From the NCBI GenBank assembly GCA_034521815.1, contig JAXHLW010000013.1, positions 672,001 to 736,000 on the forward strand: DNA of 64,000 nt. The letters are read 5' to 3'. Numbering within the stretch: the first letter of the stretch is position 1; each line of letters begins with the position of its first letter. Of the stretch, positions 1 to 16,406 are shown piece after piece. The translations under genes and the position numbers were made by a program. This DNA is from Trueperaceae bacterium. Lineage in GTDB: Bacteria; Deinococcota; Deinococci; Deinococcales; Trueperaceae. A model generated the notes under the pieces. That model saw only the letters and a program-made list of their open reading frames with translations. It made no database searches and had not been told where the DNA came from.

Positions 1-466
1 CCAGGGCGCCCGTCGTCGTTCTCAACACGACCAGCGCGACCGGCAGCGACCAGCCGTAGAACACGGTATCGGCCGTCGTCGCCGCCACCGCCACGGACCA
101 CGCCGCGCCGTGGGGGATCCCCTGGCGCTGCAGCACCAGCGCTACCGCCGGCATGCCGCCGCTTCCGCCCGGCGTGACGGTGCTGGCGAACAGGCCCAGC
201 ACGTGCGCGCGCACGGCGTGACGGAGGTGGATGCGCTCCCCCGACCTCCGTACCAGCATCGCGAGTCTCGCACCCGCGAACAGGAACGACGCCAGGAAGA
301 AGCCGATGGCCAGCGCCAGCCAGGCGGGCCGAATCGCCCGAACGGCGCGCAGCTCGTCGGGACCGAGCCACCACACGACCAGAGCGAGGGCGCCTGCGCC
401 CAGAAGGAGCGAGAGCACCAGAGCGCGCAGCAAGCTGCGGGATGCGAGAGGGTTCAGGGTCGGCAT
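1..466 (-). CDS. Lysylphosphatidylglycerol synthase TM-domain / flippase-like membrane protein (UPF0104-like), truncated by window edge
   Basis: Not in ORF track; hand translation from ATG at 466 (GGAG RBS upstream): MPTLNPLASRSLLRALVLSLLLGAGALALVVWLGPDELRAVRAIRPAWLALAIGFFLASFLFAGARL...VLGLFASTVTPGGSGGMP; hydrophobic helices and the TPxxxGG motif typical of the family. Confidence 0.75.
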   Translation of the reverse strand, partial: MPTLNPLASRSLLRALVLSLLLGAGALALVVWWLGPDELRAVRAIRPAWLALAIGFFLASFLFAGARLAMLVRRSGERIHLRHAVRAHVLGLFASTVTPGGSGGMPAVALVLQRQGIPHGAAWSVAVAATTADTVFYGWSLPVALVVLRTTTGAL

Positions 467-558
467 CAGCGGATCTCCAGGCGGCGTGGCGTCGCGGCGT
501 GGCGTCGAAGCGGCAGTCTACCCGGCCGGGTCGCGCCGCCGAGGCGCCAGACGCGCGG

Positions 559-2757
559 TCAGCCGTGCTGAAGCCCGATCCGGTCGATCAGCCTCCCGAG
601 CCAACGCGGAATGCGCCAGTTCCAGTCGCCCAGCAGCACCACCGTCGACGGCACCAGCACCGAGCGCACCAGCGTCGCATCGAGCAGCACGGCCACCGTC
701 AGCCCCAACGCCAGCGTCTTGATCAACACCACGCTGCTGAACAGGAAGACCGAAAACACCACGACCATGATCAACGCGGCCGAGGTGATCACGCCCCCGG
801 TGGACGCCAGCGCGTCCCCCACCGCCTCCCGGTCGGATCGCCCCAGGCGGTGGCTCTCGGCCACCCGCGAGATCAGGAACACCTCGTAGTCCATCGACAA
901 GCCGAACACGACGGCGAAGATGAAGATCGGGACGCTGGTCTCGACGAAGCCCAGTCCCCCTGGCACGCCGAACAGGCCGCCCGCCCAGCCGTGCTGGAAC
1001 ACGAGCGTGATCACGCCGAACGCCGAGCCGACCGTGAGCGTGTTCAACACCAGCGACTTCAGCGGAATCGCCAACGACCGGAAGGCCAGACCGAGCAGGA
1101 CGAACGTCGAGACGAACACCAGCGCCATCGCCCACGGAAAGTTCCCGTACAACGTTCGCGTCCACTCCTGCCCGCCGACGCGCGCGCCGCCCACCACCGC
1201 CACCAGGCCCGCCTCCTGCGCCATCTGCTCCAGGGTCCGGCCCAACGAGCTCGACACCTCGGCGCCGGTCGGGAACGCCCGAATCAGGGCGTAGCGCCCA
1301 GCGGTCGAGACGGTGGCGCGCGCGACGTCGGCCAGCGGGCTCTCCATCGCGAGCTCGCGCGTGGCGTAGTACTGCTGGACGAACAGGCCGGGCAGCGTCC
1401 CGGCGGTGGTGGGCGCCAGCACGCGGTCCACGTCGTCCAGAGTCCGGATCTCGCGAGCGAAGCCGGACACCGCGCGAACCGAGCTGGGGTGGAAGAACCC
1501 GCGCTCGCCGAAGTCGAGCAGCACGTTGTACGGCTCGAGCAGCCCTGCCAAGCCCGCGTCGACCAGCAGCCGTTGCGCACGGCTGGTGTCGCTCGTGCCG
1601 GTGATCCCCTCCACGCCGGAGAAGCCGAACCGCATGGTCAGCGTCGCGGAGCTGATCAGCAGCAGGAACGTCGTGCCCGTGATCGTCCACAAGCGAGGTC
1701 GAGCGAGGACCCGCTCCGACCACGATCGCCAGAAGGTCGTGCTACGCGTCCCTGGAGCGCGGCGTCCGATCCGGCCGGCGTCGACGTTGGCGCCCAGGAG
1801 CACCAGCATCGCCGGAACCGCGGTCACGGCGACGGCCATGCCGACGGCGAGCACGATCATCGACGCGGCCCCCATCGTGCGCACGAAGCCCAAGGGCGGG
1901 ACCAGCAGGGCGGAGAGGGCCAGCAGGACCGTGCTACCGCTGAACAGCACCGACGCGCCTGCGGTCCTCAACGTGACGCGCAGCGCGGTCTCGGTGTCGG
2001 GGTCGTTGCGAAGCTCCTCGCGATAGCGATTGACGAGCAGCAGCGCGTAGTCGATGCCGATCGCGAGCCCCAGCATCGTGACGATGATCTGTGCGAACGC
2101 GGCGATCTGGACCAGCTGACCCAGCACGAACAGCAGGGCGAACGACACCGTGATCGACGTGACCGCCGCGATCAGCGGAAGCGACGCCGCCACCCAGGAG
2201 CCGAACACCACGACCAGGACCGCCAGGCTCAACGGCAACCCGATCAGCTCGGCACGGAACGCGTCGCGCTCGCTGGTGCGCTTGAGGTCCAGATCGACGA
2301 CCGACGCGCCGGTGACGTAGATGGGATCTCCGCTACGGTCCGCGACGGCGGCACGGACGGCGTCCACCGCGCTCGCGACCTGCCCGTCGTCGCCGTCGCG
2401 CACCTCGACGAGCGCGACGGACAGCTGCATGGCCAGCTCCTGCAGCAGCGGGTCGTTGCGGCCGTCCCGTACCGCGACGACCTGATCGAGGTCGGCGACG
2501 CGGTCCACGACGCCGCGGAACGCCGACGTCGGTGCCTCGGACACCAGAAGCAGCTCGGGCCGATCGTGGCTCGCGAACGCGTCGCCCAGCACCCGATCGA
2601 CGTGCTCGGCCGCGCCGCCCGGCGCGAACCCCGCGTCGGTGCTCAGCACGCTCGACAGCCTCGCGGCCGTCGGGGCGCCGACGGCAAGGATCAGCGTCCA
2701 CACCAGCAGGACGGCGCGAGGTCGGGCGAGGAGGAGGGAGGCGAGGCGATCGATCAT
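559..2757 (-). CDS. MMPL family (RND superfamily) lipid transporter
   Basis: 732 aa, two repeated membrane halves with GLAIGIDYALLLVNRYREE and FGLSMDYEVFLISRVAE (Asp-Tyr proton-relay pairs). Confidence 0.92.
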   Translation of the reverse strand: MIDRLASLLLARPRAVLLVWTLILAVGAPTAARLSSVLSTDAGFAPGGAAEHVDRVLGDAFASHDRPELLLVSEAPTSAFRGVVDRVADLDQVVAVRDGRNDPLLQELAMQLSVALVEVRDGDDGQVASAVDAVRAAVADRSGDPIYVTGASVVDLDLKRTSERDAFRAELIGLPLSLAVLVVVFGSWVAASLPLIAAVTSITVSFALLFVLGQLVQIAAFAQIIVTMLGLAIGIDYALLLVNRYREELRNDPDTETALRVTLRTAGASVLFSGSTVLLALSALLVPPLGFVRTMGAASMIVLAVGMAVAVTAVPAMLVLLGANVDAGRIGRRAPGTRSTTFWRSWSERVLARPRLWTITGTTFLLLISSATLTMRFGFSGVEGITGTSDTSRAQRLLVDAGLAGLLEPYNVLLDFGERGFFHPSSVRAVSGFAREIRTLDDVDRVLAPTTAGTLPGLFVQQYYATRELAMESPLADVARATVSTAGRYALIRAFPTGAEVSSSLGRTLEQMAQEAGLVAVVGGARVGGQEWTRTLYGNFPWAMALVFVSTFVLLGLAFRSLAIPLKSLVLNTLTVGSAFGVITLVFQHGWAGGLFGVPGGLGFVETSVPIFIFAVVFGLSMDYEVFLISRVAESHRLGRSDREAVGDALASTGGVITSAALIMVVVFSVFLFSSVVLIKTLALGLTVAVLLDATLVRSVLVPSTVVLLGDWNWRIPRWLGRLIDRIGLQHG

Positions 2758-2861
2758 GGCGGTAGCAACGTCAGTCCTCGGAGCGTACCAGAGGCGACGC
2801 TCTGCCGCGCTCGCACGAAACGCCGAGGCGCCGGAGCGCCATCACCACCGGAGCGCCATCG

Positions 2862-4034
2862 TCACCGCGGGGTCGCGGTCCGCGGCGACCACGGATCGAC
2901 GTCCAAGCCCAACGGTGCCGCCTGCGCCGTTCCGTCCGCGAGGGTCGTGAGGTGGACGCCCAGCCGCTCCGACATCCGCTGGAAGGCGGCCCTGACCGAG
3001 CCAGGCACGCCGGACGTGAACGAGGCCCCGAGCACGGCCGCCAGATCGTCCGGGTGCGGCAGGTAGCGACCCGTTCCGGACGCTTCGAGATAGGCGATGA
3101 CCGCGCGCTCGTTCAGGCCCGCGTACGAGGTCGCCACGAACGGTCGCCCGGCCGCCACCGCCTCGAGCGCCGAAGCGGGGCCCGCCTTGCCCACCACGAC
3201 GTCCACCGCCGCGAGCCGCAACGGCATGTCGTCCACGAAGCCGTGGACCGACACCGAGACGCCGGCACCGGGGTGGCCCGACAGTCGTTCACGGAGCGCC
3301 TCGTTACGTCCGGCCACGACCATCACCTGCCAGCCCGCCGCGACGAGCGCCTCGATCCACGCCTCGGGCCGGTCGGCGACCCCTTCGCCGCCCAGGCTGA
3401 GCAACGCCCAGCGTCCCGTGGTCAGGCCCAGTCGGCGACGCGCTTCCTCCTGGGGACGGGGGGTGAGGATCGCACCGGCCACCGGGTAGCCCATCAGGTC
3501 GATCCGCTCGGCGGGGACGCCCAGGCGGATCAGGTGCGTCCGGGCCGCAAGCGAAGGCGCCACGACCCGGTCCGGATCGGGCTCGGCCCAGAGCGCGTTG
3601 GCGTCGAACGGCTCGGTCGCGAAGGTGACGACGGTCCGACGCAAGCCGTAGCGCTGCCGAGCGCGGGCGTACGCCACCATCAGGAAGCCGTGGTTCACGA
3701 CGACGAGGTCCACGGGGCGCGCGTTCAGGTCGGCCGCCGCGCGGCGAGCCAGCTCGTCCAGCCAGCGAGCTTCCGCCGCATGGACCAGGGAGGGCGCCAT
3801 CTCCATCGCACGCTGCCCCGCACGCACCAGCCAGGGCACCCGCAACAGGCGCGACCACGTCCGCTTGTGCCGTCGGTCCTGGGCTCCTAGGTCCAGGGCC
3901 GCCATGGCGTCGCGGACCTCGCCTCGGACACGTCCTCGCGACACGCGCTCGACGGCGTCTCGCATGGCGCGCGCGGTGGCGACGTGCCCGCCGCCTGCGG
4001 CGATGGTGTCGAACAGGATGGTGCGGGACGTCAT
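2862..4034 (-). CDS. GT28 / MGDG-synthase-like glycosyltransferase (candidate ceramide glycosyltransferase)
   Basis: N-terminal GGGH motif, GFVDDMP and VVGKAGPASALEA C-terminal motifs; ATGA overlap with upstream gene. Confidence 0.85.
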   Translation of the reverse strand: MTSRTILFDTIAAGGGHVATARAMRDAVERVSRGRVRGEVRDAMAALDLGAQDRRHKRTWSRLLRVPWLVRAGQRAMEMAPSLVHAAEARWLDELARRAAADLNARPVDLVVVNHGFLMVAYARARQRYGLRRTVVTFATEPFDANALWAEPDPDRVVAPSLAARTHLIRLGVPAERIDLMGYPVAGAILTPRPQEEARRRLGLTTGRWALLSLGGEGVADRPEAWIEALVAAGWQVMVVAGRNEALRERLSGHPGAGVSVSVHGFVDDMPLRLAAVDVVVGKAGPASALEAVAAGRPFVATSYAGLNERAVIAYLEASGTGRYLPHPDDLAAVLGASFTSGVPGSVRAAFQRMSERLGVHLTTLADGTAQAAPLGLDVDPWSPRTATPR

Positions 4035-5053
4035 CGCGGCGACGCTCCCGCCGTCCCGAGCGGAGGCGCGCCTGTGCCGTCCAGGTCGCGCAGCGCTGCC
4101 TCGAGGGCGGCGCGACGCGTCCGCGTCGGACGGACGCCCAGCTCGCCGTAGGCGGCAGAGGCGTCCAGCACCACGTCGCTCCGCATCAGGCCGGCCCGGT
4201 AGCGGGTCAAGGGAGGCTCGCCGCGCAGCCGCAGCGAGGCCCAGGCCGACTCGAATGCCGGGGCGACCGCTTCGAGCGGCCCGCCCGGCAGCGCCAGGCG
4301 AGGCGGGGAGGCTCCCAGTAGCTCGGCGATCTCGCCGAACAGCTCGCGCCAGGTCGGTGCGCCAGGATCGGCCACCAGGTAGCTGCGACCGATCGCGACC
4401 GGGTCACGGGCGCAAACGACCAGCGCCGTCGCCAGCAACGCGGCGTCCACCGTCTGCAGCCGCGCCCGGCCCCCGTCCACGAGGGGCAGAACGCCCCGCC
4501 TGAGCGCCGTGGCCACGCGGGCGAGGTTCGGATCCCGCGTCCCGTACGGCCACAGCGCGGGCCGGACGACGACCGGCTCGGGGGCCGCGGCGCGCACCAC
4601 GTCCTCGGCCAGCGCCTTCGAGCGGCCGTAAGGGAGCACGTGCTGGTCGCGCGGCCGGGTGCGGGGGTCGTCGCCCGAGATGCCGCGGTAGCGCCAGACG
4701 GCGACGCTCGAGACCAGCACGACCCTGGCGACGCCGCTGCGCACGGCGGCTCGGGCCACGTTCGCGGTGCCTTGGACGTTCACGCGGTGGAACGCACGCC
4801 ACGGCCCGTGGTCGGCGACCCGGGCAGCGGCGTGGACGACCGCGTCGACGCCGTCGAACACGCCGTTCAGCGAGGCGGGGTCGGTGACGTCGGCGCGGAG
4901 CAGGCGGACCGCCGGGTCGTGCGCGTGCGCCGCGAGGCGGTCCGTTCGGCCCCACGGCGAGACCACGGCGACGACGTCCGCGCCGTCCAGCCTCGCGGCG
5001 TCGACGACGTGCGAGCCCAAGAAGCCGTGCGCGCCCGTGACCGCCAGCTTCAC
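4031..5053 (-). CDS. NAD(P)-dependent epimerase/dehydratase-family reductase (extended SDR; candidate ceramide reductase CerR-like)
   Basis: GTG start at 5053 overlapping upstream TGA; VTGAHGFLG Rossmann motif, HAAA, VNVQGT, YGRSK catalytic YxxxK. Confidence 0.85.
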   Translation of the reverse strand: MKLAVTGAHGFLGSHVVDAARLDGADVVAVVSPWGRTDRLAAHAHDPAVRLLRADVTDPASLNGVFDGVDAVVHAAARVADHGPWRAFHRVNVQGTANVARAAVRSGVARVVLVSSVAVWRYRGISGDDPRTRPRDQHVLPYGRSKALAEDVVRAAAPEPVVVRPALWPYGTRDPNLARVATALRRGVLPLVDGGRARLQTVDAALLATALVVCARDPVAIGRSYLVADPGAPTWRELFGEIAELLGASPPRLALPGGPLEAVAPAFESAWASLRLRGEPPLTRYRAGLMRSDVVLDASAAYGELGVRPTRTRRAALEAALRDLDGTGAPPLGTAGASPR

Positions 5054-5736
5054 GGCGCGCTCCGCAGCACCACCGCGAGGTCCAGCGTCAGTCCGATCAC
5101 GAGGTGCAGCGCGGCGGCCGGCCAGATCGAGCGGAACCGTAGCGTGAGCCAGCCGAACGCCAGGCTCGCGGGGAAGGCGGCGATCGTTTCGGTGAGCGGC
5201 TTTCCGACGTGGATCAGCGTCGCCAGCATCGCTTGCGCGACGTTGGCCGAGCGCGGCCCCAGACGGCCGACGAGGGCGTGCAGGACGGCTCCGCGGTAGA
5301 ACGCCTCGAACGCGAGGTAGTACGCCGCGTACCCCGCTGCCCAGAGCGTGAAGCGGCCGGGACGCCCGGCCAGCCAGTCGACGCCGACCCACGGATAGGT
5401 CGCCGCCAAGGCGGGGTCGTCCGCGATCCACCACAGCACCGGAATCGCCAGCAACGCCGCGCCGGCGGCCCACGCCAGCCCGCGACCGCTGCGGCCCCAC
5501 CCCAGCCCGATCTCGCTCAGCGTGCGACGCAGCAACGGTGCGGCGAGAAGCGACGCCGTCAGCAGCGTCGCGACCGACCAGGCGATCCACGCCGCCGCGG
5601 CGCCCGGCCCGCGCTGGGCGCCGGCCAGCACCACCGGACCGGGCGTGGCCAGGAACCAGAACGCCAGCTGCGCGGCGGTCGCCAGCGTCAGGAAGGCCGG
5701 CAGACGCCAGCCGGCCTCCGGCCGGAGCGACGCCAC
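5050..5736 (-). CDS. CPBP (CAAX protease-like/Abi) intramembrane protein
   Basis: Multiple TM helices; FEAFYRG, LIHVGKP..E, AAALH motifs. Confidence 0.82.
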   Translation of the reverse strand: MASLRPEAGWRLPAFLTLATAAQLAFWFLATPGPVVLAGAQRGPGAAAAWIAWSVATLLTASLLAAPLLRRTLSEIGLGWGRSGRGLAWAAGAALLAIPVLWWIADDPALAATYPWVGVDWLAGRPGRFTLWAAGYAAYYLAFEAFYRGAVLHALVGRLGPRSANVAQAMLATLIHVGKPLTETIAAFPASLAFGWLTLRFRSIWPAAALHLVIGLTLDLAVVLRSAP

Positions 5737-5737
5737 C

Positions 5738-6850
5738 TCACACGGCCTTCTGGTACAGCCGATACGTCTTGTAGATCTCGCCGCCCAGCGCGCGCAGGCC
5801 TTTCGCGATCGGCTCGTTGTCCTCGAGGATCCACGACAGCTCGGCCCGGTGGTAGCCCGCCGCGACCCCGCGGTTCCACACCTCGTCGATCAGGATCAGC
5901 TCCAGGCCGCGATTGCGGAAGCTGGGCAGGACGCCCAGGATCGCCAGGCGAATCTGATCGACGATCGCCTTGCGGCGCAGGAGCGGCACGATGCCGAACG
6001 GCACGATCCGACCGTCGAACTTCGCCAGCACCTGATTCAGGTCGGGCAGGCCCAGCGACACGCCGACGATCTCGTCGTCGATCTCGAGGAACAGCGCGAT
6101 ACGGGGGTCGATGATCAGCTTCAGCGTCTCGGCGAGGTGGGCGAACTCGGCGTCGGTGTACGGCACTTGCCCCCAGTTCCGTTCCCACGCCTCGGTGTAG
6201 ATCCGCTGAACGGTGTCCAGCTCGGCCTTCCAGTCGCTCATGCGGACCTCGCGCACCACCGCGCCGGTGCGTTCGCGAGCACGTTGGGCCAGACGCCCGA
6301 ACCGCTCGGGAATCCCCTTCTCCTCGTCCGCCATCCAGGCGTGGAGGTCCTTGATCTTCTCGAAGCCGTGCGCTTCGATCCACGCCCGGTACTCGGGCGG
6401 GTTCCACGGCATCATCACGAACGGGGGCTTGTCGAACGCGTCGATCTGCAGCCCCGAGCTGTCGTTCATCGACGGGTTCATCGGGCCGCGCACAGCGCGC
6501 TTTCCGAGCTCGGACGCGCGCTCGTCGACCACGTCGAGGAGCGCCTTGGCGACGTCCGCGTCGGCGGCGTCGAAGAACCCGAAGAACAGGAGATCGTCGT
6601 CGGGATGGAACGCGGCGTGACGGTCGTCGTCGATCACCGCGACACGGCCTACGACCCGGCCGCCTCGCTCCGCCAGCCAGGTCTCGACCCGTGCGTGCTC
6701 GAAGAACGGGTTGCGACGCGGATCGAGGGTCTCGAGCTCGGCCATGCGCAACGGCGCCACGAAGCCGGCGCGACCCCGGTGCAGGCGAACGGGCAGATCC
6801 ACGAAGCGCCCCAGGTCGCGGCGGGAGTCGGTCGGTCGAACGCGGATCAT
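5738..6850 (-). CDS. YghO-like double-GNAT N-acyltransferase; candidate bacterial ceramide synthase (bCerS)
   Basis: NPFFEHA, VVGRVA, FFGFFD, RGPMN, PWNPPEY, GFEKIKDL, NWG, LGVLPSFRNRG, ELSWILEDN motifs; GGAGG RBS; directly downstream of spt-like gene. Confidence 0.8.
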   Translation of the reverse strand: MIRVRPTDSRRDLGRFVDLPVRLHRGRAGFVAPLRMAELETLDPRRNPFFEHARVETWLAERGGRVVGRVAVIDDDRHAAFHPDDDLLFFGFFDAADADVAKALLDVVDERASELGKRAVRGPMNPSMNDSSGLQIDAFDKPPFVMMPWNPPEYRAWIEAHGFEKIKDLHAWMADEEKGIPERFGRLAQRARERTGAVVREVRMSDWKAELDTVQRIYTEAWERNWGQVPYTDAEFAHLAETLKLIIDPRIALFLEIDDEIVGVSLGLPDLNQVLAKFDGRIVPFGIVPLLRRKAIVDQIRLAILGVLPSFRNRGLELILIDEVWNRGVAAGYHRAELSWILEDNEPIAKGLRALGGEIYKTYRLYQKAV

Positions 6851-6920
6851 CGCTTCCTCCAGATGCCGTCGGCGCGCCCGAGCGAGTCGGGAGCGCCGCT
6901 TCGGGCCGTGCCGGTGCGGC

Positions 6921-8177
6921 TCAGATCACGCCCAACGACCGGCCCACACGGTCGAACGCGTCCAGCAGGAGGTTCAGCTGATCGGGCGTGTGGTTCGCGT
7001 TCACGCTGGTGCGGATGATCGACTGGCCCTTGGGCACGCCGGGCGGAATGGCCGGGGTCGTGAACACGCCGGCGTCCCAGAGGCCGCGCCAGAAGCGGAT
7101 CGTCTCGTCGTCGCCGCCGATCAGGACCGGCACGATCGGCGTGCGACTGCCGAGCGTGTCGAAGCCCAGGTCGTGCAGCCCGCCACGGAGCTGGCGGACG
7201 TTCCGCCACAGGGCCTCGCGCAGCTCGGGCTCGGACGACATGATCTCGAGCGCCTTCAGGGCCGCGGCCATCTGCATGGCGGGCAACGCGGCGGTGAACA
7301 TGAACGGGCGCGCGTGGTGCTTGACGTACTTCACCACGCTGGACGTTCCGGCCATGAACCCGCCCACCGAGCCGAACGACTTCGAGAAGGTGCCGATGAT
7401 CAGGTCGACTTCGCGCTCGAGGCCGAAGTGCTCGGCCGTGCCGCGGCCACCGGCGCCCAGCACACCGGTGGCGTGCGCGTCGTCGACGATCAGGCGCGCT
7501 CCGTAGCGCCGCGCGACCTCGACCAGCTCGGGCAGGGGAGCGATGTGACCGGTCATCGAGAAGACGCCGTCGGTGACGATCATCCGTCCTCCCGACCGCC
7601 CAACGTCGCGCTCCAGCAGGCGGGCCAGATCGTCCACGTCGGCGTGGTCGTACTTGCGCAGCGAGCCGTAGCTGAGCCGGGCCCCGTCGTACAGGCAGGC
7701 GTGGTTCTCGCGATCGAAGTACAGCACGTCGTGACGGCCGGTGAGGGCGGAGAGGACCGAGAGCGAGCCGAGGTAGCCGGCGCTGAACGTCAGCGCCGCC
7801 TCCTTGTTCAGGTACTCGGCCAAGCGCAGCTCCAAGGTCCGATGCAGCGTCAGCGTGCCGGTCAGGAACCGCGAGCCGGTACAGCTGGTGCCGAAGTGGG
7901 TCAGCGCGTCGCGGGCGGCTTGCTTCAGCCGCGGGTCCTGCGTCAAGCCGAGGTAGTCGTTCGACCCGGAGATCACCATCTCGCGGCCGTCCACCACGAC
8001 CGTTCCGCCGCGCTGCTCCTCGATCACCTTGAAGTAGGGGTGAACGCCGGCGGCCTCGGCCTGGTCGGCGCGCGTGAACGCCTCGGCTTTCGCGAACGCG
8101 TCTTGCGGGGGCCGTGAGGCGTCGATCTTCTCGGCCGCGCCGTACGGTGGCGGTCGGGTGTCGGGAGCGTCAGACAA
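6921..8177 (-). CDS. spt: PLP-dependent alpha-oxoamine synthase, serine palmitoyltransferase-like
   Basis: GVHPYF, GSNDYLGL, GTSCTGSRFLTGT, NHAC, DGVFSM, DDAH, GTFSKS (PLP lysine); TTG start at 8177 with GGAGG RBS and TAGCAT -10 box upstream. Family certain, substrate specificity inferred. Confidence 0.75.
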   Translation of the reverse strand: MSDAPDTRPPPYGAAEKIDASRPPQDAFAKAEAFTRADQAEAAGVHPYFKVIEEQRGGTVVVDGREMVISGSNDYLGLTQDPRLKQAARDALTHFGTSCTGSRFLTGTLTLHRTLELRLAEYLNKEAALTFSAGYLGSLSVLSALTGRHDVLYFDRENHACLYDGARLSYGSLRKYDHADVDDLARLLERDVGRSGGRMIVTDGVFSMTGHIAPLPELVEVARRYGARLIVDDAHATGVLGAGGRGTAEHFGLEREVDLIIGTFSKSFGSVGGFMAGTSSVVKYVKHHARPFMFTAALPAMQMAAALKALEIMSSEPELREALWRNVRQLRGGLHDLGFDTLGSRTPIVPVLIGGDDETIRFWRGLWDAGVFTTPAIPPGVPKGQSIIRTSVNANHTPDQLNLLLDAFDRVGRSLGVI

Positions 8178-9180
8178 CGGGTCCTCCAGCGCCGGCACCG
8201 ACCGGCGAAGTTTCTATGCTAGCACGGGCGGGAGGCGTCTCCGGGAGCCCTCCGGCGAGGGTCGACCCCAAGCACGTCACGATCTCCTCGACCGTCTCGG
8301 CGCGCACCAGGGCGGAGCGCAATCCGCGTCCCTCGGCGTACGGCGCCACGTAGCGGGCCAGGTGGCCACGGAGGGCGCGCACGCCCCGCGCCTCGCCGTA
8401 CCAGGCGGCCTGAAGGCGGGCGTGACGCACGATCAGCGTGGCCGCCTCGGGCCAGTCGGGGGCGGGGGCGCCGCGCAGCTCGGCGAAGATCCAGGGGCGG
8501 CCCAGCGCGCCGCGCGCGATCATCACCCCCACGCCCTGAGCCCGCCGCTCCCGGAAGGTGGCCAGGTCCGTCACGTCGCCGGACCCGACCACGGGGACGG
8601 GCAGACGCGCAGCGAGCTCCACGATCGGCGCCCAGTCGGCGGTTCCTTCGTACTTCTGCGCACCGGTGCGGCCGTGCACCGCGACCAGCGAGGCGCCCCC
8701 GTCGACGACGGCGTGAGCGGCTTCGCTCAGCCTGACCTCGTCCTTGCCCAGCCGCATCTTCGTCGAGACCGGCAGACCGGTGGCGTCCCGCACGGCGGCG
8801 ACGATCGACCTGGCCAGCTCGGGACGGGCCATCAGCTCCACCCCGCAGCCCTTGTGCACGACCTTCTTCACCGGGCAGCCCATGTTCAGGTCGAACGCCA
8901 CGGGGCGGTAACGCTCATGCAGCTTCCGCGCAGCGATCGCCGCGTCGTCCGGATCCGAGGCGAACAGCTGGATCACGAGATCCGGCTCGCCCGGGTAGGG
9001 CGCGCCGATGAGCAGGGTCCGCTCGTCGCCACGCGCCAGCGCGCGGGCGCTGACCATCTCGGTCACGGCCCAGGCGCTGCCCTGTTCTCTGCACAGTCGC
9101 CGAAACGGCGCGTCGGTGTAGCCGGCCATCGGCGCCAGCACCGCGCCGCCCTGCGCCAGTCTGGAGGCGAAGAGGTTCAC
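8170..9180 (-). CDS. dusB: tRNA-dihydrouridine synthase (DusB-like)
   Basis: LAPMAGYTD, DLNMGCP, VHGRT, GVMIARGALGRPW; GTG start 8 nt after TAGACT. Confidence 0.9.
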   Translation of the reverse strand: MNLFASRLAQGGAVLAPMAGYTDAPFRRLCREQGSAWAVTEMVSARALARGDERTLLIGAPYPGEPDLVIQLFASDPDDAAIAARKLHERYRPVAFDLNMGCPVKKVVHKGCGVELMARPELARSIVAAVRDATGLPVSTKMRLGKDEVRLSEAAHAVVDGGASLVAVHGRTGAQKYEGTADWAPIVELAARLPVPVVGSGDVTDLATFRERRAQGVGVMIARGALGRPWIFAELRGAPAPDWPEAATLIVRHARLQAAWYGEARGVRALRGHLARYVAPYAEGRGLRSALVRAETVEEIVTCLGSTLAGGLPETPPARASIETSPVGAGAGGPVV

Positions 9181-9334
9181 GTTGGCGCAGTCTACCCGCC
9201 ATGTCCGGGTCGTCGGCCTAGCCGCCCGCGGTACACGCCCTCCACGGAAGGGGCGTACACGCACAGGGTGGTACCCTCCCTCGAGTGACGCATTCACGGA
9301 CGATCCACGCCGTCGGGCGGCGACCGTCGTGCAG

Positions 9335-9856
9335 GTGACGGCTCCATCGGTGACGTTTCGGCCGGTAGGGCCGGACGAGGCTGCTGCGGTGCACGCCATC
9401 TACTGCGGCGCGCCGAGCTACTTCGACGCGCTCTCGATCCCGCTTCCCACGGTCCGCGAGGTCCAGACCGAGCTCGAGACCGCCGCAGCCGACCCGCGCC
9501 GCAGTACCGAGCTCGTCCTCGCCCACCTCGGCTCGGACGAGCCGCAGGTCGCGGGCTATCTCGACGTGACGCTGGCCTACCTCGAGCCCGACGACGCCAC
9601 GGTCAACCTCCTGCTGGTCCGTGAAGAGCTGCAGGGCAGAGGCATCGGCTCGGAGGCGATCCGTCGGCTCGAGGAGCGTCTCGCCGGTCGCGTGAGCCGC
9701 GTGCTGGCCAGCGTGTACGGCAAGAACGCCCGCGCCCAGCGGTTCTGGCGCTCGCTCGGCTACGTGTTCGCGATCGACGCCGCTCCCGTCCTCGAGTGGT
9801 ACGCCAAGCGCCTGGGGGCCCCGGCCAGCGACGGTCCGACACGGCTGCTGGTCTGA
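9335..9856 (+). CDS. GNAT family N-acetyltransferase
   Basis: LLLVREELQGRGIG acetyl-CoA motif, NARAQRFWRSLGY; start uncertain (GTG 9329/9335). Confidence 0.82.
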   Translation: MTAPSVTFRPVGPDEAAAVHAIYCGAPSYFDALSIPLPTVREVQTELETAAADPRRSTELVLAHLGSDEPQVAGYLDVTLAYLEPDDATVNLLLVREELQGRGIGSEAIRRLEERLAGRVSRVLASVYGKNARAQRFWRSLGYVFAIDAAPVLEWYAKRLGAPASDGPTRLLV

Positions 9857-10013
9857 GGCGGTAGAGCGCGCCGTCCGTACGGGCCGTCGCCGGGACCGTC
9901 GGTGGTCAGGACGACGCGGTCCGGGAACGGCGCGCGCCGGGTGGTAGACTGCGCAGGACATTCCCGAAACCGTGGGCGCCGCGCGTGCCCCGCCCCCAGT
10001 GGAGGAAACGACA

Positions 10014-10571
10014 ATGATCAGCGTGACGGACTTGCGCAACGGCACGAAGGTGGACATGGACGGCGGTCTCTGGGAGTGCTTGGACTACCAGCACCAGAAG
10101 ATCGGCCGTGGCGGCGCGAAGGTCGTGGCGAAGTTCCGCAACCTCGAGACCGGCAGCATCGTGGAACGAACCTTCAACGCCTCCGAGAAGCTTCAGGACA
10201 TCTTCATCGACTACAAGACGATGCAGTACCTCTTCAACGACGGCGATCACTACACCTTCATGGACCTCGAGACGTTCGAGCAACCGACGCTCAGCCGTGC
10301 GCAGATCGGTGACGCGGCGAAGTGGCTGAAGCAGAACACCGAGGTCACGGTCGACTACTACCGCGACAAGCCGCTCAAGGTCACCCTTCCCAACGTGATG
10401 GAGCTCCAGATCGTCGAGACCGATCCGGGCGTCAAGGGCGACACCGTGTCGGGCGGGACGAAGCGCGCGAAGCTCGAGACGGGCGCGACCGTGGCCGTCC
10501 CTCTGTTCATCGACCAGGGGACGGTCGTCAAGGTCGATACGCGCACCGGCGACTACCTCGGGCGAGCCTGA
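10014..10571 (+). CDS. efp: Elongation factor P
   Basis: [19 protein letters not shown] loop, [27 protein letters not shown]. Confidence 0.97.
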
Positions 10572-11071
10572 TGGACGTCAAGGAGGTCAAGAAGCTTCTC
10601 GACGCCGCGGCCGCCGCCGACGTCAACGAGCTGACCTACGAGACCGGCGACGTGCGCATCACCGTCAAGCGTGGCGCGCAGCCGACCGAGGAGTCCCCGG
10701 TCGGGCCCGTCGTCCCTGCGCCCCAGGCGGCCTCCGTACCGGACGCCGCCACGACCGTCGCTGCGCCCGCCGGAGCGCCAGCGGCGGTCCCGCCGGCCGA
10801 GGAGACGCCGCCTCCCGCGGCCGGTGCGCACCTCGTCGAGGTCACCGCGCCGATCGTCGGCACGTTCTACGACTCGCCAGCGCCGGACGCCGACGCCTAC
10901 GTCAAGGTGGGCGACCGCGTCAAAGCCGGCGCGGTTCTGTGCATCATCGAGGCGATGAAGCTCATGAACGAAATCGAGGCCGAGACGGCCGGAACCGTGG
11001 CCGAGATCCTCGTCCGCGACGAAGAGCCGGTCGAATACGGCCAGGTGCTGTTCCGCATCGATCCGGACTGA
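10571..11071 (+). CDS. accB: Acetyl-CoA carboxylase biotin carboxyl carrier protein
   Basis: EAMKLMNEI biotinylation motif, Pro/Ala linker. Confidence 0.96.
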
Positions 11072-11076
11072 CGCCG

Positions 11077-12411
11077 GTGTTCAAGAAGATCCTGATCGCG
11101 AACCGCGGCGAGATCGCCCTCCGAATCCTGCGAGCCGCGCGCGAGCTGGGGATCCGTACCGTCGCGGCGTACTCGGAAGCCGACGAGTCCAGCCTGCCGG
11201 TGCTGCTCGCCGACGAGGCGGTCTGCATCGGGCCGCCCTCCGCGACCGGCTCGTACCTGAACGTCCGCAACCTGTTGTCCGCGGCGCTGGTGTCCGGGTG
11301 CGAAGCGATCCACCCGGGCTACGGCTTCCTCGCGGAGAACGCCGAGTTCGCCGAGAAGTGCGAAGAGCACAACCTGGTGTTCATCGGGCCTCGACCGGAA
11401 ACGATCCGCCTCATCGGCGACAAGGCCAGCGCCCGACGCTTGGCCGAGGAGGCCGGTGTGCCGCTCACCCCCGGATCCGGTGCTCTCGAGAACGTCGCGG
11501 CGGCCGAGGCGTACGCCGAGAAGGTCGGCTACCCGGTCATCCTCAAGGCGTCCGCCGGCGGGGGAGGCCGTGGCATGCGCGTCGTGCAGAGCCCGACCGA
11601 TCTGGAGCGCCAGTTCGTGAACGCTCGCGAAGAGGCGCGCAGCTCGTTCGGGAACCCCGAGATGTACCTCGAGAAGTACCTCGAGGAGCCCAAGCACGTC
11701 GAGATCCAGGTGTTCGGCGACGGCGAGGGCGAGGTGATCCATTTCTTCGATCGCGACTGCTCGATCCAGCGTCGCTATCAGAAGGTGCTCGAGGAGGCGC
11801 CCAGCATCCTCGATCCAGGGCTGCGTGCCCGCATCGCGACCGCCGCCGTGGACCTCGCCAAGCACATCCACTATCGGGGCGCCGGCACGACCGAGTTCCT
11901 GGTCGACAAACACGGCGACTTCTTCTTCAGCGAGATGAACACGCGGATCCAGGTCGAGCATCCCGTCACCGAGATGGTGACCCGGGTGGACCTGGTGCAA
12001 GAGCAGTTCCGCGTCGCGTTCGGCCAGGGCCTGTCGCTGACGCAGGACGACGTACGCGTCGACGGTCACGCGATCGAGGTCCGGATCAACGCCGAGGATC
12101 CGGATCGCGACTTCAGGCCCGCTGCGGGCACCGTCACCGACCTGCACTGGCCCGGCGGACCGGGGATTCGCGTCGATTCGCACATCTATGCGGGGTACCG
12201 CGTCCCTCCGAACTACGACAGCCTGATCGCCAAGGTGATCGCCTGGGCGCCGACCCGTGAACAGGCGATCGCCCGCATGGAGCGCGCCCTGCGCGAGACG
12301 GTGATCGAAGGGATCACGACCACGATTCCGTTCCATTTGCGCGTTCTGGACAACGCCTTCTATCGCCGTGGCGCGGTCTACACGAACTTCGTGGCGCGCC
12401 GCATGAGCTGA
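11077..12411 (+). CDS. accC: Acetyl-CoA carboxylase biotin carboxylase
   Basis: KKILIANRGEIA, HPGYGFLAEN, EMNTRIQVEH, YDSLIAK. Confidence 0.97.
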   Translation: MFKKILIANRGEIALRILRAARELGIRTVAAYSEADESSLPVLLADEAVCIGPPSATGSYLNVRNLLSAALVSGCEAIHPGYGFLAENAEFAEKCEEHNLVFIGPRPETIRLIGDKASARRLAEEAGVPLTPGSGALENVAAAEAYAEKVGYPVILKASAGGGGRGMRVVQSPTDLERQFVNAREEARSSFGNPEMYLEKYLEEPKHVEIQVFGDGEGEVIHFFDRDCSIQRRYQKVLEEAPSILDPGLRARIATAAVDLAKHIHYRGAGTTEFLVDKHGDFFFSEMNTRIQVEHPVTEMVTRVDLVQEQFRVAFGQGLSLTQDDVRVDGHAIEVRINAEDPDRDFRPAAGTVTDLHWPGGPGIRVDSHIYAGYRVPPNYDSLIAKVIAWAPTREQAIARMERALRETVIEGITTTIPFHLRVLDNAFYRRGAVYTNFVARRMS

Positions 12412-12427
12412 GGACGAGGAGACCCAC

Positions 12428-12784
12428 GTGAACGACACAGCTCCGCCCGAACTCGGTCAGGACGTTCTGTTCGGCATCGCGCAGCTCGCTTTGGAGCAGG
12501 TCGAAGGCATCAAGCCTCTCGCGCCGCCGCCCCGCGTCGGCGAGTTCCTCACCGGCCGACGCGCGAAGGGCATCCGCATCGAGCGTGACGGCGACGTCGT
12601 GGACATCGATCTCAACGTCACGGTGCGCTACGGCCTGGAGATCCCCAAGGTCGCCGAGCGTGCGCGGCGGGTCGTCCGCGAGGCGATCGGCTCGATGACG
12701 GGCCTGAAGGTTCGCTCGGTCCGCGTCTCGGTCGTCGGAATCGACGTCGCCGAGGACGGCGTGTCGGAGGACGAGGATGGCTAG
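12428..12784 (+). CDS. Asp23/Gls24 family protein (YqhY-like)
   Basis: IDLNVTVRYG..IP, MTGLKV..V.V.V motif; conserved accC-asp23-nusB order. Confidence 0.88.
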   Translation: MNDTAPPELGQDVLFGIAQLALEQVEGIKPLAPPPRVGEFLTGRRAKGIRIERDGDVVDIDLNVTVRYGLEIPKVAERARRVVREAIGSMTGLKVRSVRVSVVGIDVAEDGVSEDEDG

Positions 12785-13244
12785 ACGCCGAGCGCGGGAG
12801 CTGGCGTTCCGCGCGCTGTTCCAAGCGGACCGTGGCAGCGCCGATCTGGACACCGTGTGGGCGCAGGTCCGGGGCGACGTCGGTGAGCGTGAGGACGACC
12901 GTTCGGGCGAGAACGGCTACGGCGACGTGCTGGACGCAGAGGCGCTGAGCTTCGCGGAGCGGCTGGTTCACGCCTACCGCGACCACCGCGGCGAGATCGA
13001 CGAGCTCCTCGGGGAGCTGATCGAAGGATGGAGCTTTTCGCAGATGTCTCAGACCGACCTGAACGTGTTGCGGCTGTCCGTGACCGAGATGCTGTACGAA
13101 GACGACATTCCGCCTCGCGTCACCCTGGAGATGGCGGTCCGGCTGGCCAAGCGCTTCGGAGGCGAGGACTCGGGCCGATTCGTCAACGGGGTGCTCGGAA
13201 CCCTTTACCGCAAGCGGCACCCGCGCGCCGCCGAGGCATCGTGA
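12777..13244 (+). CDS. nusB: Transcription antitermination factor NusB
   Basis: RRRARELAFRALFQ, AVRLAKRFG, FVNGVL. Confidence 0.95.
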   Translation: MARRRARELAFRALFQADRGSADLDTVWAQVRGDVGEREDDRSGENGYGDVLDAEALSFAERLVHAYRDHRGEIDELLGELIEGWSFSQMSQTDLNVLRLSVTEMLYEDDIPPRVTLEMAVRLAKRFGGEDSGRFVNGVLGTLYRKRHPRAAEAS

Positions 13245-15142: not shown

Positions 15143-15210
15143 GGAGGCAGCCTAGACGGCCGCGTGCGCCGACACGCTGGCACCTGGGACGCCGGCCGCG
15201 GGTCCAGCGA

Positions 15211-16218: not shown

Positions 16219-16406
16219 CGGAACAGGACCGTCGTGAACAGCCAGGTGGCCAGAACCAGACCGAGCAGGACCACCAGGAACACCGGCAGCGTGGCGCGGT
16301 ACGAGGCGAAGATCAGTCGCACCACATCGCGTCGCGACAGGGCGGGCCGCCCCTCTCGGGGCGACCCGTCACGTTCGCGTCTGGTGGACTCGTCGTCTTC
16401 GACCAT
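16215..16406 (-). CDS. Small membrane protein, unknown function
   Basis: 63 aa with C-terminal TM helix; GGAGG RBS; GTGA overlap with the prenyl synthase gene. Confidence 0.6.
   Translation of the reverse strand: MVEDDESTRRERDGSPREGRPALSRRDVVRLIFASYRATLPVFLVVLLGLVLATWLFTTVLFR

What the first reader, a model, noticed from the sequence alone, without database searches (positions are those of the whole stretch)
1..8177. Candidate glycosphingolipid biosynthesis and export cluster in a probable Deinococcota bacterium
Seen: seven co-oriented minus-strand genes; four consecutive ones are tightly coupled (1-bp gap, GTGA and ATGA overlaps). Order: alpha-oxoamine synthase with SPT-like signatures (GVHPYF, GTSCTGSRFLTGT, GTFSKS), YghO-like GNAT-fold acyltransferase, CPBP protein, extended-SDR reductase, GT28 glycosyltransferase, MMPL transporter, flippase-like protein. 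Established: bacterial ceramide synthesis, defined in Caulobacter crescentus, uses Spt, a GNAT-like bCerS and an NAD(P)H-dependent epimerase-family CerR. Inference: the three core activities are clustered here with a sugar transferase and two lipid movers, i.e. a self-contained route to a glycosylceramide. Deinococcota are known for phosphoglycolipids and glycolipids, and I know of no characterised sphingolipid pathway in them. Alternative: the same chemistry makes another amide-linked amino-lipid, e.g. related to the alkylamine-containing lipids of this phylum. The cluster runs off the window edge, so further genes may follow.
Basis: partly seen in the sequence, partly recalled or inferred. 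Interest (0 to 1): 0.92.

Follow-up and report, generated by a model that had tools for sequence, protein, structure and literature searches.

The report
Ceramide glycolipid gene cluster in Trueperaceae
An uncultured relative of Deinococcus (family Trueperaceae) carries the known bacterial gene trio for making ceramide lipids, joined to sugar-adding and lipid-moving genes, which extends a recently described pathway to a new lineage but is not a new kind of system.

Summary
Window 1-8177 carries seven co-oriented minus-strand genes with the stated junctions. It is wider than described: a tRNA-dihydrouridine synthase gene overlaps the first gene upstream. Beyond the window start lie the rest of the flippase gene, a GT4 glycosyltransferase and a MacB-type ABC exporter.

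- **Oxoamine synthase:** it scores best against solved serine palmitoyltransferases. It groups with GNAT-linked synthases, including Sphingomonas Spt, apart from BioF and Kbl.
- **GNAT:** it is a full-length homologue of E. coli YghO, which a paper equates with Caulobacter ceramide synthase CC_1154.
- **Reductase:** it is CerR-like but more distant.
- **Conservation:** the gene pair is adjacent in 19 of 20 Trueperaceae loci first sampled. The two genes co-occur in 115 Deinococcota genomes and are essentially absent from three other families.

The same trio occurs in many phyla. This scan has already noted it in at least eight other genomes.

Verdict: a new member of a known kind with lineage-specific accessory genes. 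Glycosylation and export are inferred. Interest is moderate.

The parts
6921..8177 (-). Spt-like alpha-oxoamine synthase (418 aa, TTG start with a GGAGGA Shine-Dalgarno sequence; overlaps the stop of the upstream Dus gene)
   Evidence: Pfam Aminotran_1_2, 193 bits. NCBIfam best hit is SerpalmtaseCFB at 429.5 bits, below its 640 cut-off; BioF scores 383 and Kbl 353. PDB scores: S. multivorum SPT 360 bits, S. paucimobilis SPT 285, Thermus BioF/Kbl 283-284, Kbl up to 249, BioF up to 215. Serine/PLP-contact residues of SmSPT are conserved except A79->T. In the tree it falls in a 93/97 clade with GNAT-linked AOS, including Sphingomonas Spt.
5738..6850 (-). bCerS/YghO-family tandem-GNAT N-acyltransferase (370 aa)
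   Evidence: 29-30% identity over the full length to E. coli YghO and to the Sphingomonas N-acetyltransferase beside lptF/lptG. 52% identity to Rubrobacter. AF2 model has pLDDT 95 and a tandem-GNAT fold. Adjacent to the Spt-like AOS in 19 of 20 Trueperaceae loci.
5050..5736 (-). CPBP/Rce1-like polytopic membrane protein with non-canonical motifs; role unknown
   Evidence: Pfam Rce1-like, 41.6 bits against a cut-off of 22.4. Found between GNAT and SDR in 18 of 26 Trueperaceae loci examined. In 19 orthologues the motifs read FE..R (not EE..R) and HxxxG (not HxxxN/D). Found in 3 of the 8 Trueperaceae-like loci and in 0 of the 72 other loci.
4031..5053 (-). CerR-like extended SDR (340 aa), the presumed 3-keto reductase
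   Evidence: Pfam Epimerase, 84 bits. NCBIfam OleD 115.7 and HpnA 105.8, both below cut-off. PDB hits include NDUFA9. 28-35% identity, E 1e-11 to 1e-21, to CerR-position SDRs of Sphingomonas, E. coli, Rubrobacter, Streptomyces and Aureispira. TGxxGxxG and YxxxK motifs are read.
2862..4034 (-). GT28-type lipid glycosyltransferase (MGDG-synthase-like)
   Evidence: PDB hits: Arabidopsis MGD1 4wyi, E 2.2e-21 over residues 13-337; processive DAG glucosyltransferase, 1.2e-9. NCBIfam diglucosyl-DAG synthase, 53.7 bits, below cut-off.
559..2757 (-). MMPL/RND lipid transporter (732 aa)
   Evidence: Pfam MMPL, 239.7 bits. NCBIfam MmpL3-type domain, 294 bits, below cut-off. Its position in the cluster varies among relatives.
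1..466 (-). N-terminal part of an MprF-type flippase-like protein. The full gene is 363 aa and continues 1091 bases beyond the window start.
   Evidence: PF03706, 111.1 bits for the full gene L003 17375-18466. TIGR00374 flippase-like domain.
8170..9399 (-). tRNA dihydrouridine synthase (Dus). Co-oriented, and its stop overlaps the AOS start. Probably a neighbour and not a pathway member.
   Evidence: Pfam Dus, 220.8 bits. Adjacent to the AOS in 4 of the 20 loci and in 5 of the 80 loci.

Best explanation
This is a bacterial ceramide (sphingolipid) biosynthesis cluster of the Spt / bCerS / CerR kind, carried by a Trueperaceae (Deinococcota) genome and extended by lineage-specific head-group and transport genes.

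Proposed route:
1. The PLP-dependent Spt-like synthase condenses L-serine with a long-chain acyl thioester to give 3-ketosphinganine. The donor is probably acyl-CoA, since no dedicated ACP or acyl-ACP synthetase was found.
2. The tandem-GNAT YghO/bCerS-family enzyme N-acylates this base.
3. The extended SDR reduces the 3-keto group, giving dihydroceramide.
4. The GT28 (MGDG-synthase-like) enzyme adds a hexose to the C1 hydroxyl.
5. The MprF-type flippase moves the glycolipid across the inner membrane.
6. The MMPL and the MacB-type ABC system move it towards the outer membrane.

What is shown: homology of the three core enzymes, and their conserved linkage and co-occurrence. What is inferred: substrate identity, order of steps, glycosylation of ceramide rather than diacylglycerol, and the transport roles. 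The CPBP-like protein has no assigned role.
For: **Spt-like synthase**
- PDB scores: S. multivorum SPT 360 bits, against Thermus BioF/Kbl 283-284, Kbl up to 249 and BioF up to 215.
- SmSPT residues N52, Y54, G80, S81, F83, H138, S185, T241, S243, K244 and M271, described in PMC10196870 passages, are all conserved in the alignment.
- In a 21-row tree the window AOS lies in a 93/97 clade with the GNAT-linked AOS of Streptomyces, Aureispira, Rubrobacter, E. coli PN43 and Sphingomonas Spt.
- In the same tree the genome's second AOS pairs with E. coli Kbl at 100/99.

**GNAT**
- It is a full-length homologue of E. coli YghO (29-30% identity; tblastn E 9e-37, pairwise E 4e-57).
- It is also a full-length homologue of the Sphingomonas gene beside lptF/lptG (29% identity, E 5e-56).
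- The PMC9386255 figure legend lists yghO ECD_02850 as the counterpart of Caulobacter CC_1154, which is required for dihydroceramide.

**SDR**
- Same NCBIfam neighbours (HpnA, OleD, SdmB) as five CerR-position SDRs.
- PDB hits to NDUFA9 match the CerR-NDUFA9 homology stated in PMC11087976.

**Linkage and co-occurrence**
- AOS is next to the GNAT in 19 of 20 Trueperaceae loci.
- AOS lies within 6 kb of the GNAT in 46 of 80 named loci from many phyla, and an SDR in 34 of 80.
- Of 364 Deinococcota genomes, 116 have the Spt-like AOS and 126 the GNAT, and 115 have both. By family (GNAT/AOS): f1 104/97 of 127, f3 19/18 of 19, f2 1/0 of 125, f4 0/0 of 23, f5 0/0 of 68.

**Accessory genes**
- The best solved relative of the GT is MGD1, at E 2e-21.
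Against: - No lipid data exist for this organism.
- The AOS is below the NCBIfam equivalog cut-offs for serine palmitoyltransferase (429.5 against 640; 391 against 500).
- The tree is small and lacks HemA, cysteate acyltransferase and S. multivorum SPT rows.
- The window SDR is clearly more distant from CerR-position SDRs (E 1e-11 to 1e-21) than they are from one another (1e-23 to 1e-48), so orthology is not shown.
- Caulobacter proteins themselves could not be compared. The link runs through E. coli YghO, Sphingomonas synteny and a paper.
- In family f3 (5 of 5 loci) and genus g16 (2 of 2 loci) the GNAT is not next to the AOS, although an Spt-like AOS is elsewhere in all 5 such genomes tested.
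- A second GT28 plus flippase pair (40% and 35% identity) lies on contig C1, so this module may serve ordinary glycosyl-diacylglycerol lipids.
- The GT4 gene is conserved in only 3 loci.
- The genome has LpxC, so the lipid is not an obvious LPS substitute.
Confidence: 0.72

Rival explanations
1. The core trio makes ceramide, but the GT28, flippase, MMPL and ABC genes serve the ordinary glycosyl-diacylglycerol glycolipids of the organism and are only neighbours. The ceramide then stays free or gets another head group.
For: A paralogous GT28 plus flippase pair exists on contig C1 (40% and 35% identity). A further GT28-like gene lies at window 29883-30998. The closest solved relatives of the GT act on diacylglycerol. 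The position of the MMPL varies, and close relatives carry only 39-41% identical GTs in the cluster. None of the 72 non-Trueperaceae loci has these genes beside the trio.
Against: The SDR and GT genes overlap by ATGA. GT and flippase homologues both follow the trio in 14 of the 20 Trueperaceae loci, across many genera. The MacB/ABC pair also lies downstream in many of them.
Confidence: 0.25
2. The same chemistry is applied to another amino acid, giving a 1-deoxy or otherwise non-serine N-acyl amino-alcohol lipid or a sulfonolipid-like lipid in place of a true sphingolipid.
For: The AOS does not reach any NCBIfam Spt equivalog cut-off. SPT-related enzymes include cysteate acyltransferases that score only somewhat lower against it (265 and 249 bits). 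One substrate-pocket residue differs from SmSPT (A79->T).
Against: Eleven of twelve SmSPT active-site residues that were checked are conserved, including those that contact the serine hydroxyl network. PMC13692747 section 11 says cysteate enzymes have a remodelled pocket. S. paucimobilis SPT, whose product is established, also differs from SmSPT at the position of A79, reading Asn there.
Confidence: 0.12
3. The cluster makes the alkylamine-containing phosphoglycolipids typical of Deinococcus and Thermus.
For: It is an amide-lipid chemistry in the right phylum. The existence of those lipids is recalled, not retrieved from any call.
Against: The GNAT and the Spt-like AOS are found in 1 and 0 of 125 genomes of family f2, 0 of 23 of f4 and 0 of 68 of f5. 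That f2 and f5 are Deinococcaceae and Thermaceae is my inference from their sizes. The same trio occurs in many phyla that lack such lipids.
Confidence: 0.03
4. The AOS is a housekeeping BioF/Kbl enzyme, and the neighbourhood is coincidental.
For: TIGR01825 (BioF/Kbl family) and bioF models also score high, at 389 and 383 bits.
Against: The genome has a separate AOS that pairs with E. coli Kbl at 100/99 support. The window AOS is separated from BioF and Kbl in the tree. Its linkage to the GNAT is conserved across phyla.
Confidence: 0.02

Closest known systems
Caulobacter crescentus / rhodobacterial ceramide pathway: Spt (CC_1162), bCerS/CerS (CC_1154 = E. coli YghO), CerR (CC_1164), AcpR (CC_1163), AasR (CC_1165), with LptF2/LptG2 nearby (PMC11324152, PMC9386255, PMC11087976; passages read)
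   Same: It has the same three enzyme families in one locus: an Spt-like AOS, a YghO-family tandem GNAT and an NDUFA9/HpnA-like extended SDR. Lipid-transport genes are also attached to the locus.
   Different: No AcpR or AasR is present. The AOS is closer to the Bacteroidota-type SPT (360 bits) than to the Sphingomonas type (285 bits). Transport candidates are an MprF-type flippase, an MMPL and a MacB-type ABC system in place of LptF2/LptG2. A CPBP-like gene sits between bCerS and the reductase. The SDR is distant (28-33% identity, E 1e-11 to 1e-16).
Compact AOS-GNAT-SDR cassettes of Actinomycetota, Gemmatimonadota, Bacteroidota and others (Streptomyces sp. NBC_01001, Rubrobacter radiotolerans plasmid 1, Aureispira anguillae)
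   Same: Same gene order (AOS, GNAT, SDR) and no dedicated ACP. The Rubrobacter AOS nests within the Trueperaceae clade (96/88), and its GNAT is 52% identical.
   Different: Those cassettes lack the CPBP, GT28, flippase, MMPL and MacB genes. Rubrobacter has an LTA-synthase-family gene instead, and Streptomyces has a condensation-domain gene.
Sphingobacterium multivorum serine palmitoyltransferase (PDB 3a2b, 8guh)
   Same: It is the best solved match, aligned over residues 31-410 of 418 (360 bits). The PLP lysine, His138 and the serine-binding network residues are conserved.
   Different: Ala79 is Thr. Activity of the window enzyme is untested.
GT28 lipid glycosyltransferases (plant MGD1, bacterial UgtP-type processive glucosyltransferase)
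   Same: GT-B fold. The best solved relatives transfer hexose from a UDP-sugar to the free hydroxyl of a membrane lipid.
   Different: Their known acceptor is diacylglycerol. A ceramide acceptor here is inferred from gene linkage only.

Membership tests
Serine palmitoyltransferase (bacterial Spt) | Fold-type I PLP alpha-oxoamine synthase with the Schiff-base lysine (GTFSKS), the His that stacks on PLP, and the Asp/His of the DxxH motif | tested here: met
   The alignments to 8guh, 3a2b and 2jg2 show K, H and D/H conserved. Pfam Aminotran_1_2 scores 193 bits.
Serine palmitoyltransferase (bacterial Spt) | Residues that hold the L-serine external aldimine in S. multivorum SPT (N52, Y54, G80, S81, H138, S185, T241, S243, K244, M271; A79) | tested here: met
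   All are conserved except A79->T (alignment; residue list from PMC10196870 passages).
Serine palmitoyltransferase (bacterial Spt) | Score above a curated Spt equivalog cut-off | tested here: not met
   NF047600 429.5 against 640; NF047599 391.1 against 500; NF047603 313.3 against 670. These models are lineage-specific (CFB, beta, alpha). In the control run, NF047603 was over its cut-off in 0 of 14 genomes, including Caulobacter.
Serine palmitoyltransferase (bacterial Spt) | Groups with known Spt and apart from BioF, Kbl and HemA | tested here: inconclusive
   A 93/97 clade holds the window AOS with Sphingomonas Spt and other GNAT-linked AOS, apart from E. coli BioF and Kbl. The tree has only 21 rows, no HemA or cysteate-acyltransferase references, and long branches were flagged.
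Serine palmitoyltransferase (bacterial Spt) | Makes 3-ketosphinganine from L-serine and long-chain acyl-CoA/ACP | not testable with these tools
   An enzyme assay is needed.
bCerS / YghO family (bacterial ceramide synthase) | Full-length homology to CC_1154-type proteins | tested here: met
   29-30% identity over 377-380 aa to E. coli YghO and to the Sphingomonas gene beside lptG. yghO is listed as the CC_1154 counterpart in PMC9386255. The Caulobacter sequence itself was not available.
bCerS / YghO family (bacterial ceramide synthase) | GNAT-fold acyl-CoA N-acyltransferase | tested here: met
   AF2 model with pLDDT 95. The top Foldseek hits are tandem-GNAT proteins (2wpw, 5kf1, 7q3a, MshD) at E 1e-13. 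Pfam Acetyltransf_1 scores 26.7 bits.
bCerS / YghO family (bacterial ceramide synthase) | Encoded with, or co-occurring with, spt | tested here: met
   19 of 20 Trueperaceae loci. 115 of 116 AOS-positive Deinococcota genomes also have the GNAT.
CerR (bacterial ceramide reductase) | NAD(P)-binding extended SDR of the epimerase/NDUFA9-like kind with an intact cofactor motif and YxxxK | tested here: met
   Pfam Epimerase 84 bits. NDUFA9 chains are among the PDB hits. TGAHGFLG and YGRSK are read.
CerR (bacterial ceramide reductase) | Orthology to CC_1164-type reductases | tested here: inconclusive
   28-35% identity, E 1e-11 to 1e-21, to five CerR-position SDRs, which match each other at 1e-23 to 1e-48. 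No plasmid-collection hit at E 1e-8. Same NCBIfam neighbours.
Rhodobacterial AcpR/AasR acyl-donor module | Dedicated ACP and acyl-ACP synthetase beside spt | tested here: not met
   None is in the cluster. tblastn of the E. coli and Sphingomonas ACPs found nothing in the genome. The E. coli fatty acyl-AMP ligase gave only one distant hit, 24% identity. The genome is 83.5% complete.
GT28 lipid glycosyltransferase | Homology to MGDG synthase / UgtP over both GT-B domains | tested here: met
   4wyi, E 2.2e-21 over residues 13-337; 9wde, 1.2e-9. Pfam Glyco_tran_28_C scores 25 bits against a cut-off of 22.
CPBP (Rce1-like) intramembrane protease | Pfam domain above cut-off | tested here: met
   PF02517, 41.6 bits against 22.4, matching profile positions 20-90 of 93.
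CPBP (Rce1-like) intramembrane protease | Canonical EExxxR, FxxxH and HxxxN/D motifs (motif definitions recalled, not from a call) | tested here: not met
   In 19 Trueperaceae orthologues motif 1 reads F-E-x-F-x-R-G and motif 3 reads H-x-x-x-G. The FxxxH histidine is kept in at least 80%.

The most novel reading that the evidence does not exclude
Trueperaceae make a hexosyl-ceramide that accounts for part of their still uncharacterised glycolipids. They move it to the outer membrane by a route not yet described for sphingolipids: an MprF-type flippase, a MacB-type ABC exporter and an MMPL, in place of the LptF2/LptG2 candidates of Proteobacteria. The conserved, motif-divergent CPBP-like membrane protein, translationally coupled between bCerS and the reductase, would be a new non-proteolytic pathway component, for example handing the membrane-bound intermediate from acylation to reduction.
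Probability: 0.25. Interest if true: 0.6.

Novelty: new member of a known kind. Interest (0 to 1): 0.4.

Why it matters
It places the bacterial ceramide pathway in Deinococcota, and specifically in most Trueperaceae. It gives a concrete, testable candidate for the unidentified glycolipids of this radiation- and salt-tolerant group. One passage in the Truepera radiovictrix genome paper says its glycolipids were never characterised.

PMC11087976 states that no flippase or transporter for bacterial sphingolipids had been identified. The attached flippase, MMPL and MacB genes are therefore candidates for that missing step.

The finding does not change the picture of how bacteria make ceramide.

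Tried and rejected
**Literature and reference sequences not obtained**
- Stankeviciute et al. 2022 could not be read: it is not held under its DOI or its PMC id. Its taxon list and its supplements were not seen, nor were those of PMC11334938 and PMC11324152. They may already list Deinococcota.
- No Caulobacter sequence could be obtained. The control genomes of the genome search give only counts.

**Searches that gave little**
- The Atlas did not hold the window GNAT. A look-up with the homologue P0120 gave only generic GNAT clusters.
- PDB by sequence found nothing for the GNAT.
- The cluster look-up of ten distant GNAT representatives named only Cloacimonas and Spirochaetota members.
- The SDR found no match in the plasmid collection at E 1e-8.
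- The genome-contig scan used patterns from the window protein and did not return a named Truepera radiovictrix record. Whether the type strain has the cluster is therefore not shown under a name.
- Promoter and terminator scans of 1-11000 were at chance level: 0 promoters, and 4 terminators against 3.0 expected.
- Rfam found only one tRNA in the window.

**Ideas rejected**
- An LPS-replacement role was rejected, because LpxC is present at 194.8 bits. LptD was not found, but that model rings in only 2 of 14 controls.
- The GT4 gene was considered a conserved member and rejected, because it is present in only 3 of the loci searched.

**Literature searches for prior work**
- 'Truepera' with 'sphingolipid' gave 5 papers, judged from the search listing only (titles and abstract starts). 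All five titles concern community or host-associated surveys.
- 'Deinococcota' with 'bacterial sphingolipid' gave 1 paper, on the snail gut.
- 'Deinococc', 'Trueper' and 'Thermus' had 0 occurrences in the main text of PMC11334938.

Full report
**What is in the sequence**

The window is G000:C13:672001-736000 of a 2.63-Mb, 13-contig genome that is 83.5% complete. It has about 70% G+C.

On the minus strand of 1-9399 lie eight co-oriented genes:
- Dus, 8170-9399
- an alpha-oxoamine synthase (AOS), 6921-8177
- a 370-aa GNAT, 5738-6850
- a CPBP/Rce1-like membrane protein, 5050-5736
- an extended SDR, 4031-5053
- a GT-B glycosyltransferase, 2862-4034
- an MMPL transporter, 559-2757
- the start of an LPG_synthase_TM (MprF-type flippase) gene, 2-466

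The AOS most likely starts at the TTG at 8177, six bases after GGAGGA. That start overlaps the Dus stop codon.

I fetched the DNA beyond the window start (L003). There the flippase gene is complete at 363 aa (PF03706, 111 bits). It is followed by a GT4 glycosyltransferase on the opposite strand, then a MacB/FtsX-type permease and an ABC ATPase on the minus strand.

The nearest named proteins and loci are Trueperaceae MAGs at 71-90% identity.

**The oxoamine synthase**

Among solved structures it scores as follows:

| Solved relative | Bits |
|---|---|
| Sphingobacterium multivorum serine palmitoyltransferase | 360 |
| Sphingomonas paucimobilis SPT | 285 |
| Thermus BioF/Kbl enzyme | 283-284 |
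| cysteate acyltransferases | 265 and 249 |
| Kbl | up to 249 |
| BioF | up to 215 |

The residues that a structural paper names around the serine external aldimine of the S. multivorum enzyme are N52, Y54, G80, S81, F83, H138, S185, T241, S243, K244 and M271 (PMC10196870, passages). All are conserved in the printed alignment. Ala79 is Thr here. The Sphingomonas enzyme also differs at that position, reading Asn.

The protein does not reach any of the three NCBIfam Spt equivalog cut-offs (429.5 against 640 for the best). Those models are lineage-specific.

I built a 21-row maximum-likelihood tree. The window AOS sits in a clade (93/97) with the GNAT-linked AOS of Streptomyces, Aureispira, Rubrobacter and E. 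coli PN43, and with the Spt of Sphingomonas parapaucimobilis. This clade is separate from E. coli BioF and Kbl. The genome's only other AOS pairs with E. coli Kbl at 100/99.

The tree is small, has long branches and lacks HemA and cysteate-enzyme references. I count it as supportive, not decisive.

**The GNAT**

It has no NCBIfam model and no sequence match among solved structures. It belongs to a large family: 1054 clusters at 50% identity with E up to 1e-30.

A protein search of the plasmid collection gave full-length matches to genes annotated yghO in E. coli (29.4% identity). It also matched an N-acetyltransferase in a Sphingomonas parapaucimobilis record.

In the Sphingomonas record the gene lies after lptF, lptG and a desaturase, and 6 kb from a run of NAD(P)H-binding protein, acyl carrier protein and AOS. 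The E. coli PN43 record has yghO next to a fatty acyl-AMP ligase, an epimerase-family gene, an ACP, an AOS, lptG and lptF.

These layouts match the Caulobacter locus as described in PMC11324152 (CC_1165-CC_1162, CC_1156/1155, CC_1154; passages). A figure legend in PMC9386255 lists 'CC_1154, yghO ECD_02850, Swit_3908 ...' as the counterpart acyltransferases required for dihydroceramide synthesis.

Pairwise, the window GNAT is 29% identical to both proteins over about 380 residues (E 5e-56; E 4e-57).

An AlphaFold2 model from a 65-sequence alignment has mean pLDDT 95 and a tandem-GNAT fold. Its best structural matches are tandem-GNAT enzymes.

I could not obtain a Caulobacter sequence. The family assignment therefore rests on YghO, synteny and the papers.

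**The reductase**

The SDR has the TGxxGxxG and YxxxK motifs. Its nearest NCBIfam models are OleD (a lipid 3-oxo reductase), HpnA and SdmB, all below cut-off. Its PDB hits include several NDUFA9 chains.

PMC11087976 states that CerR is homologous to NDUFA9. Five SDRs that occupy the CerR position in Sphingomonas, E. coli, Rubrobacter, Streptomyces and Aureispira have the same NCBIfam neighbours.

The window SDR matches them only at 28-35% identity, E 1e-11 to 1e-21. They match one another at 1e-23 to 1e-48. It works like a CerR by position and family. Orthology is not shown.

Like the Sphingomonas protein, it starts directly with the Rossmann motif.

**Conservation**

- In 20 Trueperaceae loci of 20 kb, 19 have the AOS next to the GNAT. 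Most continue with CPBP, SDR, GT, flippase, MacB permease and ABC ATPase.
- With six more Trueperaceae loci, the CPBP gene is present in 18 of 26.
- In family f3 the GNAT stands alone in 5 of 5 loci, and in genus g16 in 2 of 2. All 5 such genomes tested nevertheless have an Spt-like AOS (57-67% identity) elsewhere.
- Across 364 Deinococcota genomes the GNAT is found in 126 and the Spt-like AOS (E up to 1e-120) in 116, and 115 have both. These tallies include the unpublished genome G325.

By family:

| Family | GNAT | Spt-like AOS | Genomes |
|---|---|---|---|
| f1 | 104 | 97 | 127 |
| f3 | 19 | 18 | 19 |
| f2 | 1 | 0 | 125 |
| f4 | 0 | 0 | 23 |
| f5 | 0 | 0 | 68 |

- Outside the phylum, 80 named loci returned by a pattern scan cover Calditrichota, Bacteroidota, Ignavibacteria, Acidobacteriota, Gemmatimonadota, Planctomycetota, Chloroflexota, Actinomycetota and others. 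Of these, 46 have an AOS and 34 an SDR within 6 kb of the GNAT. Several loci are cut by contig ends.
- The CPBP, GT, flippase, MMPL and MacB genes appear only in the Trueperaceae-like loci of that set.

**Accessory genes**

- The best solved relative of the GT is plant MGDG synthase MGD1 (E 2e-21). Next is a processive diacylglycerol glucosyltransferase. It is therefore a GT28-type enzyme that glycosylates a membrane lipid.
- The genome holds a second adjacent GT28 plus flippase pair on contig C1 (40% and 35% identity). A weaker GT28-like gene lies at window 29883-30998. The module is thus not unique to the ceramide locus.
- The CPBP-like protein passes the Pfam cut-off. Its 19 orthologues conserve F-E..R and H-x-x-x-G where the family (as I recall it) has E-E..R and H-x-x-x-N/D. 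I cannot assign it a role.
- No AcpR or AasR equivalent was found. Together with the closer similarity to the Bacteroidota-type SPT, this points to acyl-CoA as the donor.
- The genome has LpxC and an Omp85 protein. The cell is therefore probably diderm with lipid A, and the lipid is not an obvious LPS substitute.

**Comparison with what is known, and novelty**

The Spt/bCerS/CerR trio is a described pathway. Metagenomic work states that Spt-like proteins, often with bCerS and CerR nearby, occur in MAGs of 38 phyla, raising the number of candidate sphingolipid-producing phyla to 40 (PMC11334938, passages). Its main text does not mention Deinococcota (0 occurrences). The list is in a figure and supplements that I could not see.

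Notes from this scan describe the same trio in at least eight other genomes, and six of those eight notes call it an ordinary or known kind of cluster. One note also equated bCerS with YghO, which I checked independently.

My literature searches found no paper on sphingolipids in Truepera or Deinococcota. [quoted passage not shown]

I therefore file this as a new member of a known kind. It is well supported, family-wide in Trueperaceae, and has a lineage-specific set of head-group and transport genes that is worth a lipidomics test.

**Confidence**

| Claim | Confidence |
|---|---|
| A ceramide-type product | about 0.7 |
| The product is glycosylated by the linked GT28 and exported by the linked transporters | about 0.45 |
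| Interest | 0.4 |

Noticed in passing
L054 (Rubrobacter radiotolerans plasmid 1, NZ_CP007515.1) 10707-16299: This 191-kb Rubrobacter plasmid carries AOS, GNAT, SDR and an LTA-synthase-family gene. Its AOS nests inside the Trueperaceae clade (96/88), and its GNAT is 52% identical to the window's. This suggests horizontal transfer between two radiation-tolerant lineages.
   Followed up: partly
L058 (E. coli PN43 record NZ_MG591698.1) 1-7125: In this E. coli record yghO sits beside a fatty acyl-AMP ligase, an epimerase-family gene, an ACP, an AOS and second copies of lptG and lptF. This is a complete Caulobacter-type ceramide locus next to glcC.
   Followed up: partly
G000:C13:1305036-1305791 (outside the window): An LpxC homologue (194.8 bits, over the Pfam cut-off) is present in this Trueperaceae genome. 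The Thermus thermophilus and Deinococcus radiodurans control genomes do not ring for the family.
   Followed up: no
G000:C1:316518-318733 and window 29883-30998 (- strand): A second adjacent GT28-like plus MprF-type flippase pair lies on contig C1 (40% and 35% identity to the cluster's copies). A third, weaker GT28-like gene lies inside the window (27.6% identity).
   Followed up: partly
L035, L036, L087-L089 (same genus as the window): Some congeners carry a variant cluster without the CPBP gene, with only 37% (SDR) and 39-41% (GT) identical genes after the GNAT. At least two versions of the downstream module therefore exist within one genus.
   Followed up: no
L003 16099-17349 (+ strand; just outside the window start): A GT4 glycosyltransferase is convergent with the flippase gene and lies between it and the MacB permease. 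Homologues were found in only 3 of the loci searched (L048, L049, L065).
   Followed up: yes
L059-L063 (family f3) and L051, L073 (genus g16): In these genomes the bCerS-like GNAT is not beside an AOS, yet an Spt-like AOS (57-67% identity) is encoded elsewhere. The pair is unlinked but retained.
   Followed up: partly
window 23395-23475 (- strand): A single tRNA gene is the only Rfam match in the window.
   Followed up: no
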